Shown here in pieces: positions 57,898-62,054 of a stretch of 64,000 bases of DNA. This DNA is from a virus (taxonomy: Duplodnaviria; Caudoviricetes). Each line of letters starts with the position of its first letter. Position 1 is the stretch's first letter. The stretch covers positions 128,001 to 192,000 of IMG/VR virus record IMGVR_UViG_3300012983_000001, one strand, 5' to 3'. The notes under the pieces are model-generated. The model ran no database searches. It was not told the origin of the DNA and saw nothing but the letters and a program-made list of their open reading frames with translations. The position numbers were made by a program, and so were the translations under genes.

Positions 57898-58089
57898 ATG
57901 AATAACCGCATAACCCTGTCTCATGATGACATGATGCTTATCGTATCTGCATTAGCTGCATATCCAGGTGTAGTTAAGAAAATGCATCACAATGATGATT
58001 CCATGGGTGACATTACCCGTGCTACGAACCAGTGTGTCGAAATCGGTATGAAGATTATTGACATGATGGATGCAATCGAGCAGCAGTAG
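57898..58089 (+). CDS. Early hypothetical protein (63 aa)
   Basis: SD AAAGGAGG. Confidence 0.7.
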   Translation: MNNRITLSHDDMMLIVSALAAYPGVVKKMHHNDDSMGDITRATNQCVEIGMKIIDMMDAIEQQ

Positions 58090-58120: not shown

Positions 58121-58184
58121 TCTCCTCTGGGGGAGACTAAATAGGCAGTTAGGCCCAGAGCGTTAGTAGAAATACTAGGTCTGC
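58121..58184 (+). ncRNA. Pistol self-cleaving ribozyme
   Basis: TCTCC TCTGGG GGAGA CTAAATA G GCAG TTAGG CCCAGA GCG TTAGTA GAAA TACTAG GT CTGC. P1, 6-bp pseudoknot, P2, P3 and the conserved AAAUA, GCG and GU are all present. Predicted cut G58179/U58180. Confidence 0.93.
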
Positions 58185-58240
58185 ACACAACAAAAAATAA
58201 AATAAAGACCCATGTGTAGAGGGCAGATTGGAGAAACCAT

Positions 58241-58510
58241 ATGAGTTATCAGATGAACAACCAGGAAAACGAAGCTATGAGACAGTACAGCTACAGAGAA
58301 CGTAGTCGTATAGCAAGAGAGAAAAAGAGACAGGAATTTATCTCTAACTTTATTGCTGTTGTAGTAGGTGTACTCATGATGCTTGCATTTGCGTATGCAT
58401 TCGTATATGCACTTGCTAATGAACCGTTTAATGCACCTGTTGCTAATCCAGCGTACATAAACGAGTATGAAACACCAGATGTACCAAGATACATCTACCC
58501 TGAAGAGTAG
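58241..58510 (+). CDS. Small single-TM membrane protein flanked by two ribozymes
   Basis: Basic patch followed by FIAVVVGVLMMLAFAYAFVYALA. Confidence 0.7.
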   Translation: MSYQMNNQENEAMRQYSYRERSRIAREKKRQEFISNFIAVVVGVLMMLAFAYAFVYALANEPFNAPVANPAYINEYETPDVPRYIYPEE

Positions 58511-58517
58511 TACTACA

Positions 58518-58592
58518 TGCAGAGTGGCATAGGGACTGTACATCCCTATGTTAATGCACTATCCCATATAGGGATACTGGTCACAAGTCCAG
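58518..58592 (+). ncRNA. Twister ribozyme, circularly permuted (P5-type order)
   Basis: TGCA-GAGTG, P1 hairpin GCATAGGGA/TCCCTATGT, TAA-TGCAC, P3 TATCCC/GGGATA, P4 CTGG-TCACAAGT-CCAG; T1 CAC/GTG, T2 AC/GT. P2/T2 is 1 nt shorter than consensus. Predicted cut U58552/A58553. Confidence 0.75.
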
Positions 58593-58623
58593 GTGCAAAT
58601 ATAATCCTAAGGAGGATAAGGTT

Positions 58624-59298
58624 ATGAAGATTAAGAATCTGTATTATGGCATTATCGGTCTTATTGCTTACTACAAGCAGACCAAGGCAAACAAGGTTAA
58701 TCTTAAGGCTACTAAAGCTAATAAGGTTGACGTAGTAACTGTTGATGATAGGGAATTAAGTATTCACTACATCCCTGACATGAATAAGCGTGGTGTTGCA
58801 TATGGAGCAATCTTTGTTTTCCCACATCTTGACAAAAAGACATTCATCGGTGTGGATGACAAATTCTATGCATTACCGCAGGAATTACAACAGGCAGTGA
58901 TTTACCATGAGGTAGGGCATTATGCACATGGTCACTTTAGTAACAAGGGGTTCCGCTATATCTGGCAACAGTGTGTACAGTTAGGCAAGATTGCTGTTGC
59001 TTCTGAAGACCAGAAGGCTAACCTGTTATACGAGTTTACCATGATGACTCGTAATGACAACGAGGAGTATGAAGCAGATGCCTATGCAGTTAATAAGGTA
59101 GGAGCTCATGCTGTTGCTGCTTTGCTCTTAACGTTCTATAGCTTGTACCCTAGTGAGGAACTTGCTATCAGATATCAAAAGGTTACTGGTGAAGCAATCG
59201 AAACAAGTAGTGCTTTTCTGGAGCTTAAGAAACAAATGGCACAACAATTTACTTCTATCTTTAAGGATGCTGAAGTAGTATCCATTGAGACTTTATAA
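58624..59298 (+). CDS. Zinc metalloprotease (M48/M56-like zincin)
   Basis: AVIYHEVGH and EYEADAYA motifs. Confidence 0.8.
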   Translation: MKIKNLYYGIIGLIAYYKQTKANKVNLKATKANKVDVVTVDDRELSIHYIPDMNKRGVAYGAIFVFPHLDKKTFIGVDDKFYALPQELQQAVIYHEVGHYAHGHFSNKGFRYIWQQCVQLGKIAVASEDQKANLLYEFTMMTRNDNEEYEADAYAVNKVGAHAVAALLLTFYSLYPSEELAIRYQKVTGEAIETSSAFLELKKQMAQQFTSIFKDAEVVSIETL

Positions 59299-59321
59299 AC
59301 CTAGATTACATTAAGGAAAGG

Positions 59322-59951
59322 ATGGTAGTTATGATGAACACTACAACAAACAAGGTATTGGAGAAACTAGTAAACGCAGGCGCACTGGAAAGAATCGCAA
59401 AGGACTTAAAGCTAGACAAGGTTCCAACTATTGTATATGACGGAGAAGGTGATTACGTCATGGCAGCGTCTGGACAAGTATGGGCTCGTGGTAATCTGTT
59501 CCATGAAACAGTTACAAAGACTGAAAGTGACTATGTTATTCATGTCAACACCAAGGCCTTAGCTGATACTCAGAGACAGTATTGTATGCTGACTTTAAAC
59601 CCTCAGATTATGACAGACATTACACTGATATTACTGAAACACGAATGCCGTCATATCTGGCAATATCAGAATCAGTTCACGGTTGGTGATGTTCGCGAAA
59701 AATTCTCTTTTCGTTTAGAAGCTCATGGAGATTCCAAGGTAGAGCGTGATGCAAACGAGTACGCAGTACAGAAAAGCAAAGGCAGACGCTATATCTTAGC
59801 TCTTCATGCAAAAATGTTACAAGAGAAAAACCCATTCTCATTTGGACCTTCTACAGAAGAGATACATTTAAACCATGAGGTAATGCGTGCGTATTTTCCT
59901 ATTGCACATTACATAATCAATAAACTTACAGGAGGTAAGAAATATGTATAA
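59322..59951 (+). CDS. Zinc metalloprotease-like protein (HExxH)
   Basis: LLKHECRHIWQY and VERDANEYA. Confidence 0.75.
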   Translation: MVVMMNTTTNKVLEKLVNAGALERIAKDLKLDKVPTIVYDGEGDYVMAASGQVWARGNLFHETVTKTESDYVIHVNTKALADTQRQYCMLTLNPQIMTDITLILLKHECRHIWQYQNQFTVGDVREKFSFRLEAHGDSKVERDANEYAVQKSKGRRYILALHAKMLQEKNPFSFGPSTEEIHLNHEVMRAYFPIAHYIINKLTGGKKYV

Positions 59952-60576: not shown

Positions 60577-60753
60577 ATGGATGTTGATATTACACTGTCT
60601 AGTATAGCTGTGACTTATATTAAGCATGGACTTATGAGACAAGAAGAACTGGAAGGACATAAAGACCTTCTAAAAGACTGCTTGAATAGACGCGCGATTC
60701 AAGTATTTAACAACGGCCACGAGTACGATACTCGCAAAGACTATTTTCTCTAA
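60577..60753 (+). CDS. Small early protein (58 aa)
   Basis: Below the track cutoff; SD GGAGGTGA; MDVDITLSSIAVTYIKHG...RKDYFL. Confidence 0.7.
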   Translation: MDVDITLSSIAVTYIKHGLMRQEELEGHKDLLKDCLNRRAIQVFNNGHEYDTRKDYFL

Positions 60754-60769: not shown

Positions 60770-61840
60770 ATGGAAGTATTAAATGTATACGTTGGCAAAG
60801 AACAGGTAAAGTTCGATTTAGGTAATCTATTGGGTGTTGATGTAGAGATATGGGATAAGCTTACATATCAGACTGCAAAGAAACATCAAGATTTAATTCC
60901 TGCGATTGAGATATGTATCGAGGATTGCCTTGGTACTGCGGTAAATATCGTAGATGAGGTTAGTTTTAAACTAGCCATTGCTGATTTAGTGAACATTATC
61001 CAAGGTGATAATGCAATAAATATTAAGGAGGATACTATTATGATGAACAACACTACTAACCAGAACATGGAAATGGCAATGGAAGAGATGCAGAAGAAGG
61101 CAGGCATCGGAGAATTACTCAAAGAAACAAAGGATGCAGTTATCCACGGAGTAATTTCTAAGACACACAAGACTAAGGAACAGTACGTACAGCAGGTTGA
61201 TGAATCTGCTAACGTGGTTAAGGGTGCAATGGTTGTTACTCTTGACAAGATGTCCGCAGTGCTTGGTTACAATGCTCTAAAGGAAAGTATCTTAGGCATC
61301 ATTGAAGCAGGTACTTGTAATGGCAAGACTGATTTATTCGCAATGGCCGAGGAATGCAGAAAGCGTATTGACCTTGAGGTTGAGACACTTCTTGCATGGG
61401 GTAGCGAAGAAGATTTCAGAAAGGCTGCACAGTTAAAAGCTTTATCTAAAGACCAGAGAGGCAAGTCTATCTTTGAAGCTTTAGTATCCATGTTAATTTG
61501 GATTGCTAAATGGGTAGCTAAGACACTCAGAAAATGGTTCCAGGTAGACAATGAGAAATCCATTATTGGTGCTCTTTGCCGTGCTCTTTCTGGTTTTGCT
61601 GCTGTGGTACGTGAAGGCGTTAAGTTAGTATGGCACACTGCAAAGTTTGGTGTAAGCTTTGTAATTGCTGGCGCTATTAAGCTTGGCGTGTGGATTATCA
61701 ATACATTTAAGACTTTCTGTGAAGGCATCAAAGGATGGTTTAACAAGAAGAATGAAATGATTGATGATGAGGAAGACCAGTTCTTCTTTGTTGCAGATGA
61801 AGAGGGCAATCTTGTAATTCCTGACGAAGACGAAGAATAA
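60770..61840 (+). CDS. Early hypothetical protein with amphipathic helices and acidic tail
   Basis: 356 aa; in-frame internal SD/ATG at 61040. Confidence 0.75.
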   Translation: MEVLNVYVGKEQVKFDLGNLLGVDVEIWDKLTYQTAKKHQDLIPAIEICIEDCLGTAVNIVDEVSFKLAIADLVNIIQGDNAINIKEDTIMMNNTTNQNMEMAMEEMQKKAGIGELLKETKDAVIHGVISKTHKTKEQYVQQVDESANVVKGAMVVTLDKMSAVLGYNALKESILGIIEAGTCNGKTDLFAMAEECRKRIDLEVETLLAWGSEEDFRKAAQLKALSKDQRGKSIFEALVSMLIWIAKWVAKTLRKWFQVDNEKSIIGALCRALSGFAAVVREGVKLVWHTAKFGVSFVIAGAIKLGVWIINTFKTFCEGIKGWFNKKNEMIDDEEDQFFFVADEEGNLVIPDEDEE

Positions 61841-61891: not shown

Positions 61892-61915
61892 TAACTACTA
61901 TACATATACATGAAC

Positions 61916-61974
61916 TATACTCCCTGGTGTTACTTGAATACGTTTACGGGTTATCTTTAACACCAGGGGGTATA
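61916..61974 (+). other. 17-bp stem-loop (RNase III-like candidate)
   Basis: TATACTCCCTGGTGTTA / TAACACCAGGGGGTATA with one G-U pair. Confidence 0.6.
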
Positions 61975-61998
61975 TGTATATATCCCACCTTAATGGTT

Positions 61999-62054
61999 TG
62001 CTGTCGTAGCGGTAAAAGTCCGTTACCTGATGATTGGCATGAGCCGAAACAGCA
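61999..62054 (+). ncRNA. Hammerhead ribozyme, type III
   Basis: TGCTG-TC-GTAGCGG TAAAAGT CCGTTAC-CTGATGA-TT-GGC ATGA GCC-GAAA-CAGCA. GUC triplet, cut after C62005; 2-nt insertion before stem II. Confidence 0.88.

What the first reader, a model, noticed from the sequence alone, without database searches (positions are those of the whole stretch)
58180..58552. A single membrane-protein ORF excised by flanking pistol and twister: possible natural circular mRNA
Cleavage by both ribozymes releases a 373-nt RNA holding only the 89-aa single-TM ORF, with 5'-OH and 2',3'-cyclic phosphate ends. That is the RtcB ligase substrate and the principle of the engineered Tornado circularisation cassette. The 5' TCTGCA (58180-85) is complementary to TGCAGA (58518-23), next to the terminal P1 hairpin, which would juxtapose the ends. 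This 6-bp pairing competes with a local 8-bp hairpin, so circularisation is speculative.
Basis: inference. Interest (0 to 1): 0.72.

Follow-up and report, generated by a model that had tools for sequence, protein, structure and literature searches.

The report
Phage gene flanked by two ribozymes
A small membrane-protein gene in a 208-kb uncultured phage sits between a pistol and a twister self-cutting RNA. Ribozyme-flanked genes have been known in phages since 2011, close relatives lack this exact layout, and nothing found here shows that the excised message becomes a circle.

Summary
Rfam finds a pistol ribozyme (58121-58184, cut 58179/58180) and a type-P5 twister (58518-58592, cut 58552/58553) above gathering score. 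They bracket a real, conserved 89-aa single-TM gene, so the excised RNA would be 373 nt. The 6-bp end helix exists and is in the ViennaRNA minimum-energy fold (p about 0.96).

The circular-mRNA reading has no direct support.
- A 99%-identical variant (L019/L020) has 441 extra bases, a long hairpin plus a 109-aa gene, inserted exactly at the twister's 5' edge. Its pistol-to-twister RNA is 813 nt with two genes.
- Relatives with 75% and 43% identical copies of the gene have neither ribozyme. The 80% copy lacks the twister, and its contig is too short to show a whole pistol.
- The only other independent pistol-to-twister-P5 cassette found (G032) folds its 5' end locally.
- The phage has no match to the RtcB or RNA-ligase Pfam families searched.
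- No RNA run holds the locus.

The most likely function is ribozyme processing of an operon transcript into defined pieces. A hammerhead lies 3.5 kb downstream in the same operon. Perreault et al. 2011 described such gene-flanking ribozymes in prophages and looked for circles without finding any. This scan has reported the same layout on other DNA. It is a new member of a known kind.

The parts
57898..58089 (+). Upstream 63-aa gene. Its mRNA would end with the whole pistol fold after cleavage.
   Evidence: ORF list and translation. The gene is called in six near-identical contigs.
58121..58184 (+). Pistol ribozyme. P1 is 58121-24/58133-36. A 7-bp pseudoknot joins 58125-31 to 58154-60. P2 is 58145-48/58181-84. 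P3 is 58163-68/58173-78. Cleavage falls between G58179 and U58180.
   Evidence: Rfam RF02679, 44.7 bits against a cut-off of 34.5. Helices were read. The C in place of the first A of AUAAAUA also occurs in 10 of 102 distinct natural pistol-pattern hits.
58180..58552 (+). Predicted 373-nt excised RNA with a 5'-OH on U58180 and a 2',3'-cyclic phosphate on U58552.
   Evidence: Cut sites derived from the Rfam alignments. Fold. The end chemistry is established knowledge for both ribozyme classes.
58180..58185 (+). 5'-terminal UCUGCA. It includes the orphaned pistol P2 3' strand and pairs with 58518-58523.
   Evidence: Direct reading. Pair probabilities 0.68-0.96. Ranked first of 256 alternative strands.
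58230..58233 (+). Shine-Dalgarno GGAG for the 89-aa gene.
   Evidence: Direct reading.
58241..58510 (+). 89-aa single-pass membrane protein gene (P0001). The C-terminal motif NEYETPDVPRYIYPEE is conserved.
   Evidence: Translation. Homologues at 80, 75 and 43% identity and about the same length. No Pfam or PHROG family above cut-off.
58518..58592 (+). Type-P5 twister ribozyme. P2 is 58518-21/58555-58. P1 hairpin is 58527-34/58544-51. P3 is 58561-66/58572-77. P4 is 58577-79/58590-92. T1 pairs 58524-26 with 58582-84. T2 pairs 58558-59 with 58587-88. Cleavage falls between U58552 and A58553.
   Evidence: Rfam RF02684, 47.1 bits against a cut-off of 37.6. T1 (GUG/CAC) and T2 (AC/GU) keep pairing through changes on both sides relative to the consensus. 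P3 is shortened symmetrically in L019.
58624..59298 (+). Downstream 224-aa M48-like metallopeptidase gene. After twister cleavage its 5' leader begins at A58553.
   Evidence: Translation. Pfam PF01435 at E 9.7e-4, just below the cut-off.
62000..62053 (+). Type III hammerhead in the same operon, with its cut between C62005 and G62006. Helix II has only 3 bp plus a UU bulge.
   Evidence: Hand-read core CUGAUGA...GAAAC. Rfam misses it in the window. The homologue L010 2582-2638 scores 25 bits and shows four compensatory pairs in helix I.

Best explanation
The pistol and the twister are two of three independent self-cleaving processing sites in a rightward multi-gene operon of a 208-kb phage. The third is a hammerhead at 62000-62053.

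Each ribozyme sits in an intergenic gap on the coding strand, just upstream of a ribosome-binding site. As the long transcript is made, each cuts it. Together they turn a polycistronic RNA into pieces of one or a few genes with fixed ends. The 5' ends carry a hydroxyl. The 3' ends carry a cyclic phosphate, preceded by a stable hairpin (twister P1) or by a whole folded ribozyme (pistol).

The 89-aa membrane-protein gene becomes a 373-nt monocistronic mRNA only because, in this variant, it is the sole gene between two such sites.

Shown here: the motifs, their positions, their gain and loss between relatives, and the replacement of the twister position by a long hairpin in relatives. Inferred: that both ribozymes cleave in vivo, and that the benefit is uncoupled stability or translation of the individual messages.
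For: Both motifs exceed Rfam gathering scores and keep every helix and pseudoknot. About 94% of predicted natural twisters tested in vitro were active (PMC11662667).

A third ribozyme, a hammerhead with four compensatory pairs against its L010 homologue, lies in another intergenic gap of the same operon.

Synteny and read laying show that the cassette content varies.
- The window has pistol-ORF89-twister.
- L019/L020, 99% alike, have pistol-ORF89-hairpin-g109-twister, giving an 813-nt RNA with two genes.
- The homology break lies exactly at the twister's first base, 58517/58518.
- L011 and L012 have ORF89 with no room for a pistol upstream (18- and 20-nt gaps), and no Rfam ribozyme at E<=1 beside the gene.
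- L010, L011 and L019 carry a 25-bp hairpin with three compensatory pairs where the window has the twister. It looks like an RNase III-type processing site.

In other phage contigs:
- Tandem pistol cassettes are spaced 340-1000 nt apart.
- Twister-twister cassettes span 291-2149 nt and mostly hold one small ORF.
- 16 of 20 twister-P5 loci have no other Rfam ribozyme within at least 1.5 kb upstream, so a twister does not need a partner.

No intrinsic-terminator-like site lies on the + strand between 57160 and 62837.

[quoted passage not shown] Processing of polycistronic transcripts has been proposed but not proven (PMC6765202).
Against: No RNA data exist for this phage, so cleavage in vivo is unproven.

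The pistol score (44.7 bits) is at the low end of phage pistols, which score 42-77 bits.

The selective benefit of cutting between cistrons has never been demonstrated for any phage (PMC6765202).

The 6-bp end helix is the best of 256 possible strands. A pure processing model treats that as coincidence.
Confidence: 0.62

Rival explanations
1. Natural circular mRNA. After both cuts, the 5' UCUGCA pairs with UGCAGA next to the twister P1 hairpin. This brings the 5'-OH of U58180 beside U58552>p, and a host RtcB ligase seals the 373-nt RNA into a translatable circle, as in the engineered Tornado system.
For: Both ribozyme classes leave the end chemistry that RtcB uses (established knowledge).

The 6-bp helix is in the minimum-energy fold with p about 0.96 in the 373-nt product and about 0.97 in the 813-nt product of L019.

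The native strand ranks first of 256.

The pistol product 5' end UCUGCAC copies the twister's own 3' product AAUGCAC at +3 to +7, so it would dock in twister P2 at the cleaved active site.

Tornado constructs yield translatable circular mRNA in E. coli with native RtcB (PMC12628768).

An apparent pistol-bearing circular RNA from a metatranscriptome mapped to a dsDNA phage and remains unresolved (bioRxiv 10.1101/2022.07.19.500677).

RtcB is common in bacteria: 10 of 14 control genomes have it.
Against: No junction or RNA evidence could be obtained.

The phage has no match to RtcB or to the two RNA-ligase Pfam families searched (PF09511 also matched no control genome). The host is unknown.

The single-gene cassette is not conserved, and relatives express the gene with no flanking ribozymes.

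The only other independent pistol-to-twister-P5 cassette (G032, 443 nt) folds its 5' end into a local hairpin (p about 0.9), with end pairing at p about 0.04.

The L031 pistol has the same CUGC strand and no twister in the 2.6 kb available downstream, nor anywhere in its record.

All copies of the two motifs are identical at the helix, so there is no covariation.

The helix starts 8 nt after the stop codon, within reach of a terminating ribosome, and the local hairpin can form about 340 nt earlier during transcription (inference).

Perreault 2011 looked for circular or spliced products of clustered hammerheads and detected none.
Confidence: 0.09
2. The ribozymes are mainly conserved boundary modules of a mosaic accessory region. 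Their sequences serve as recombination joints or hitch-hike with neighbouring cassettes, and cleavage has little consequence for the flanked gene.
For: The window and L019 diverge exactly at the twister's 5' edge.

A 163-nt block is about 95% conserved while both flanks are replaced. It comprises the twister, the RBS and the first 19 codons of the peptidase gene (58518-58680).

Gene order around ORF89 is shuffled among five lineages.

Ribozymes come and go between relatives.
Against: The motifs keep full catalytic architecture.

The twister P3 stem is preserved through a symmetric indel, and the hammerhead helix I through four compensatory changes. Both argue for selection on the RNA fold, not only on the DNA.

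This reading is compatible with the processing model rather than exclusive of it.
Confidence: 0.17
3. One or both motifs are inactive relics, so no 373-nt RNA is made.
For: The pistol score is near the bottom of the phage range, and one conserved linker A is a C.

Some motif-matching ribozymes are inactive (Perreault 2011).
Against: All helices, both twister pseudoknots and the pistol pseudoknot are intact.

The C variant is found in about 10% of natural pistol-pattern hits.

Both sequences are identical in contigs from more than six samples.

About 94% of predicted twisters cleave in vitro.
Confidence: 0.08

Closest known systems
Clustered self-cleaving ribozymes flanking single genes or short gene blocks in prophages (Perreault et al. 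2011, PMC3088659). I recall, but could not open, Weinberg et al. 2015 showing pistol near twister and hammerhead.
   Same: The ribozymes are intergenic, on the coding strand, and flank a single small gene. The identity of the flanked gene is not constant between relatives. The context is a phage. A circular product was already considered as a possibility.
   Different: Here the pair is heterologous (pistol 5', type-P5 twister 3') rather than hammerhead-hammerhead. The two orphaned P2 strands left after cleavage are complementary to each other over 6 bp.
Tornado (twister-optimised RNA for durable overexpression) circularisation cassette, RtcB-dependent (described for E. coli in PMC12628768)
   Same: A 5' ribozyme leaves a 5'-OH and a 3' ribozyme leaves a 2',3'-cyclic phosphate. 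Short complementary ends could juxtapose the termini. An RBS and an ORF lie inside.
   Different: The Tornado stem is designed and longer, and both ribozymes are twisters. Here the helix is 6 bp, with a 3-nt bulge and a 25-nt hairpin between helix and 3' end. No ligase is known, no circle has been observed, and the cassette is not conserved.
Phage early-mRNA processing at intercistronic RNase III hairpins (T7 paradigm; from my own knowledge)
   Same: Intercistronic structured RNA elements cut a long phage transcript into defined messages with protective terminal structure. Relatives of this phage carry a 25-bp hairpin at the position of the twister.
   Different: Cleavage here is autocatalytic, and the end chemistry differs from the 5'-P and 3'-OH that RNase III leaves.
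Viroid-like, satellite and retrozyme circular RNAs made by ribozyme cleavage and ligation
   Same: An RNA is excised by two self-cleavage events, leaving ends that can be ligated.
   Different: Those use the same ribozyme at both ends, so the monomer rebuilds an active site. Here the ends come from different classes, and the +1 base would be U instead of the twister's conserved A. Self-ligation is therefore unlikely (inference).

Membership tests
Pistol ribozyme (Rfam RF02679) | Covariance-model score at or above the gathering threshold | tested here: met
   44.7 bits against 34.5, full model 1-68.
Pistol ribozyme (Rfam RF02679) | P1 hairpin whose loop forms a pseudoknot with the internal loop, plus P2, P3 and a G-U cleavage step in the P2-P3 linker | tested here: met
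   Read. CUCUGGG at 58125-31 pairs with CCCAGAG at 58154-60. P2 is GCAG/CUGC. P3 has 6 bp with a GAAA loop. The cleavage step is G58179-U58180.
Pistol ribozyme (Rfam RF02679) | Site-specific self-cleavage | not testable with these tools
   Needs in vitro transcription or RNA end mapping.
Twister ribozyme, type P5 (Rfam RF02684) | Covariance-model score at or above the gathering threshold | tested here: met
   47.1 bits against 37.6. 47.8 bits in L019/L020.
Twister ribozyme, type P5 (Rfam RF02684) | P1, P2 and P4 helices, double pseudoknot T1/T2, and a U-A cleavage step followed by a conserved A | tested here: met
   T1 is GUG/CAC and T2 is AC/GU, both keeping pairing by two-sided change from the consensus. 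The cleavage step is U58552-A58553-A58554. The optional P3 is kept through a symmetric indel in L019.
Twister ribozyme, type P5 (Rfam RF02684) | Site-specific self-cleavage | not testable with these tools
   As a prior only: about 94% of predicted natural twisters were active in CHiTA (PMC11662667).
Ribozyme-flanked gene cassettes in phage operons (Perreault 2011) | Two or more self-cleaving ribozymes in intergenic gaps on the coding strand, flanking single genes or short blocks | tested here: met
   Pistol, twister and hammerhead lie within 3.9 kb, all on the + strand and all intergenic.
Ribozyme-flanked gene cassettes in phage operons (Perreault 2011) | Identity and number of flanked genes not constant between related elements | tested here: met
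   The window has one gene, L019/L020 have two, and L011/L012 have the gene without ribozymes.
RtcB-sealed (Tornado-like) circular RNA | 5'-OH and 2',3'-cyclic phosphate ends produced by flanking ribozymes | tested here: met
   Follows from class membership of both motifs and the established chemistry.
RtcB-sealed (Tornado-like) circular RNA | Terminal complementarity that juxtaposes the ends | tested here: inconclusive
   The 6-bp helix is in the MFE at p about 0.96 and ranks 1 of 256. There is no covariation, the second natural pistol-to-twister cassette does not pair its ends, and the same strand occurs without a twister.
RtcB-sealed (Tornado-like) circular RNA | An RtcB-type ligase available in the infected cell | tested here: inconclusive
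   No PF01139, PF09414 or PF09511 match in the complete phage genome (PF09511 also matched no control genome). The host is unknown.
RtcB-sealed (Tornado-like) circular RNA | A covalently closed product with a 58552-58180 junction | not testable with these tools
   No RNA run holds the locus. Only DNA contigs could be laid.

The most novel reading that the evidence does not exclude
The orphaned P2 strands of a pistol and a type-P5 twister have been matched so that the excised message docks its 5'-OH into the cleaved twister site. A host RtcB then seals it. This would make a natural, translatable circular mRNA in a bacteriophage, a natural counterpart of the Tornado design.
Probability: 0.08. 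Interest if true: 0.8.

Novelty: new member of a known kind. Interest (0 to 1): 0.3.

Why it matters
The biological role of the many self-cleaving ribozymes in phage genomes is still an open question (PMC6765202).

This locus adds a clean natural comparison. One phage species has two variants that differ by a 441-base insertion exactly at the ribozyme edge. Relatives place a long hairpin where this phage has a twister. Both facts fit the view that these ribozymes are interchangeable transcript-cutting signals at cassette boundaries.

If the excised RNA were shown to be circular, it would be the first natural circular mRNA in a phage. The present evidence makes that unlikely.

Tried and rejected
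- RNA evidence. The look-up of sequencing runs listed no RNA holder. The four DNA runs laid were contigs only, so no transcript ends or back-joined reads could be seen.
- Close relatives. Peptide-pattern scans of viral contigs with ORF89 and the peptidase found none. blastn and tblastn against cultured phages found nothing, so the host stays unknown.
- Function of ORF89. Pfam gave only a sub-threshold SecE hit over the TM span. PHROGs and the ESM Atlas gave nothing usable.
- More ribozymes. Rfam at E<=1 over the window and at gathering threshold over the rest of the genome found only the pistol and the twister. A scan at E<=10 around 62000 missed the hammerhead, which was then read by hand.
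- More heterologous cassettes. Of 50 pistol-bearing phage records, only one other (G032) has a Twister-P5 above the cut-off. Twenty twister-P5 loci had no other ribozyme class upstream. A statistical test of end pairing across many pistol-to-twister cassettes was therefore not possible.
- TAG read-through. The frame stays open for 38 codons after the stop. I rejected read-through because all homologues stop at the same TAG with unrelated downstream sequence, and no suppressor tRNA was seen among the 15 phage tRNAs.
- Papers not held. Weinberg 2015 (PMC4509812) and Roth 2014 (PMC3867598) could not be opened. What I say about them rests on the 2019 review and on memory.

Full report
**What is there**

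The window is bases 128001-192000 of a complete 208,433-bp phage genome with direct terminal repeats.

Rfam at gathering threshold reports exactly two ribozymes in the window, both on the + strand:
- Pistol at 58121-58184, 44.7 bits against a cut-off of 34.5.
- Type-P5 twister at 58518-58592, 47.1 bits against a cut-off of 37.6.

A permissive scan of the window (E<=1) adds nothing. A gathering-threshold scan of the other 146 kb finds only tRNAs.

I read the alignments against the sequence.

The pistol has:
- P1 at 58121-24/58133-36.
- A 7-bp pseudoknot between 58125-31 and 58154-60.
- P2 GCAG/CUGC at 58145-48/58181-84.
- A 6-bp P3 with a GAAA loop.
- The G-U cleavage step at 58179/58180.

The twister has:
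- P2 UGCA/UGCA.
- An 8-bp P1 hairpin at 58527-34/58544-51.
- An optional P3, and P4.
- Both pseudoknots. T1 is GUG/CAC and T2 is AC/GU, and each keeps pairing through two-sided changes from the consensus.
- The U-A step at 58552/58553.

The single departure in the pistol is a C for the first A of AUAAAUA. This occurs in 10 of 102 distinct pistol-pattern hits in phage contigs.

**The gene**

The ORF 58241-58510 encodes 89 aa. It has a basic N-terminus, one hydrophobic span and a conserved C-terminal peptide. GGAG lies 7 nt upstream of the ATG.

It is a real gene. Homologues of 88-89 aa at 80, 75 and 43% identity keep the C-terminal motif NEYETPDVPRYIYPEE. No family assignment was possible.

In every lineage it lies close to an M48/DUF6782-like metallopeptidase gene.

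**The end pairing**

UCUGCA (58180-85) is the exact complement of UGCAGA (58518-23).

ViennaRNA places this helix in the minimum-energy structure of the 373-nt product. Pair probabilities are 0.68-0.96. The competing 8-bp local hairpin (58180-87 with 58213-20) has p about 0.03 and costs 2.9 kcal/mol more.

I replaced the pistol P2 3' strand by each of the 256 possible 4-mers. The native CUGC gave the highest end-pairing probability. 28 of 256 reached 0.5 or more and 5 of 256 reached 0.8 or more.

They are the two orphans left when the P2 helices of the pistol and the twister lose their partners. The pistol product 5' end UCUGCAC copies the twister's own 3' product AAUGCAC from +3 to +7. It would therefore sit in twister P2 with its 5'-OH at the cleaved site.

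This is suggestive, but it is an equilibrium prediction on a naked RNA. The local hairpin can form about 340 nt earlier during transcription. The helix also starts 8 nt after the stop codon, within reach of a terminating ribosome (both inference).

**Comparative evidence**

Six contigs from different samples carry the same arrangement with identical ribozymes. They give no covariation.

A variant that is 99% alike differs in an informative way (L019/L020; read-laying run X1):
- It has 441 extra bases inserted exactly between 58516 and 58518, at the first base of the twister.
- The insert is a 25-bp hairpin followed by a 109-aa gene.
- The twister then starts 2 nt after that gene's stop codon.
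- The pistol-to-twister RNA of this variant is 813 nt and holds two genes. The same end helix is predicted for it.
- Its twister P3 stem is one pair shorter through a symmetric indel, which argues for selection on the fold.
- A 163-nt block (58518-68680 region: twister, RBS and the first 19 codons of the peptidase, 58518-58680) is about 95% conserved, while the rest of the peptidase is only 47% identical.

More distant relatives tell the same story:
- L011 has the gene 18 nt after an upstream gene. L012 has gaps of 20 and 13 nt on either side of it. Neither has a ribozyme beside the gene at E<=1.
- L010 lacks the twister. Its contig starts only 100 nt upstream of the gene, which is too short to hold a whole pistol, and the part present shows no pistol sequence.
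- L010, L011 and L019 all carry the long hairpin directly after the ORF89 stop, where the window has the twister. It has three compensatory pairs and a free energy of -26.8 kcal/mol.

A type III hammerhead lies at 62000-62053 in the window. Rfam misses it there. Its L010 homologue scores 25 bits and shows four compensatory pairs in helix I.

The picture is an accessory operon with three features. Intergenic gaps carry interchangeable structured cutting signals. Gene order is shuffled between lineages. Ribozyme edges coincide with mosaic boundaries.

**How general the layout is**

Among 50 phage records found with a pistol sequence pattern, 48 have Rfam pistols. Several have tandem arrays spaced 340-1000 nt apart.

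Twister-P5 copies are frequent in phage contigs. Twister-twister cassettes span 291-2149 nt and mostly hold one small ORF.

Of 20 twister-P5 loci with at least 1.5 kb upstream, 16 have no other Rfam ribozyme at gathering threshold. Two more hold homotypic twister arrays.

Only one other independent pistol-to-twister-P5 cassette turned up: G032, 443 nt, with an unrelated 97-aa ORF. Its 5' end UAUGCAC also resembles its twister's 3' product. However, it is predicted to fold into a local terminal hairpin (p about 0.9), and end pairing has p about 0.04.

A third pistol (L031) has the same CUGC strand as the window and no twister downstream.

Among about 17 distinct pistol product 5' ends, 3 carry NUGCA. 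Two of those three precede a twister-P5, which is a weak hint (roughly p 0.02 on tiny numbers). The complementarity in the window is best treated as a possible coincidence that one experiment could settle.

**Ligase and expression**

The complete phage genome has no match to RtcB (PF01139), the Rnl2-type RNA ligase family (PF09414) or the T4 Rnl1 family (PF09511). The PF09511 search also matched none of the control genomes, so it is uninformative.

The host is unknown. RtcB is common in bacteria: 10 of 14 control genomes have it.

No public RNA run holds the locus.

**Literature**

Perreault et al. 2011 reported three relevant points (PMC3088659):
[quoted passage not shown] - Circular or spliced products were considered but not detected.

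The 2019 review states that bacterial ribozymes cluster with each other and near phage genes. It also states that processing of polycistronic transcripts is proposed but unproven (PMC6765202).

Tornado cassettes do yield circular, translatable mRNA in E. coli through native RtcB (PMC12628768).

An apparent pistol-bearing circular RNA from a metatranscriptome mapped to a dsDNA phage and was left unresolved (bioRxiv 10.1101/2022.07.19.500677).

The circle idea is therefore biochemically plausible, already raised, and still undemonstrated.

This scan has also met ribozyme-bracketed phage genes several times on other DNA, with the same outcome.

**Verdict**

Excision of a 373-nt monocistronic RNA is the expected consequence of two intact ribozymes. 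Circularisation is not supported by conservation, by a second natural example, by a phage ligase or by any RNA data.

My estimates are:
- Independent transcript-processing sites at cassette boundaries: about 0.6.
- Mainly mosaic-boundary modules: about 0.17. This overlaps with the processing reading.
- Natural circular mRNA: about 0.09.
- One or both motifs inactive: about 0.08.

This is a new member of a known kind. Interest is modest.

Noticed in passing
window 62000-62053: A type III hammerhead with its cut at 62005/62006. It has a 3-bp helix II and a UU bulge after CUGAUGA. Rfam does not report it in the window, but the L010 homologue (2582-2638, 25 bits) shows four compensatory pairs in helix I.
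   Followed up: partly
L019 1184-1245; L010 368-430; L011 5271-5333: A conserved 25-bp hairpin lies directly after the ORF89 stop codon in relatives, at the position where the window has the twister. It has about 60 nt, three compensatory pairs and a free energy of -26.8 kcal/mol. It looks like an RNase III-type processing site.
   Followed up: partly
window 58518-58680: This 163-nt block (twister, RBS and the first 19 codons of the peptidase gene) is about 95% conserved between the window and L019. The sequence on both sides is replaced, and the rest of the peptidase is only 47% identical. The ribozyme edge is therefore a mosaic boundary.
   Followed up: partly
window 60577-60753 and 60770-61840: The 58-aa and 356-aa ORFs together correspond to a single 439/449-aa gene in L010 and L011. 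L012 is split in the same way. This may be a split gene, a frameshift or a small insertion.
   Followed up: no
window 61904-61983: A near-perfect hairpin of about 78 nt lies just upstream of the hammerhead. It gives only spurious miRNA-family hits in Rfam and may be another processing stem.
   Followed up: no
L009 14228-14322 (genome 206028-206122): ARAGORN calls a 95-nt tRNA-like gene with a four-base anticodon (ttag) among the phage's 15 tRNA genes.
   Followed up: no
window 58241-59951 and relatives: ORF89 lies next to or near an M48/DUF6782-like metallopeptidase gene with an HExxH motif in all five lineages examined, although gene order is otherwise shuffled. The two products may work together.
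   Followed up: no
L181 2681-5405; L238: Two other phage contigs carry arrays of six and four type-P5 twisters spaced 420-590 nt apart, each interval holding about one small ORF. Monomers excised from such arrays would rebuild a complete nicked twister at their ends.
   Followed up: no
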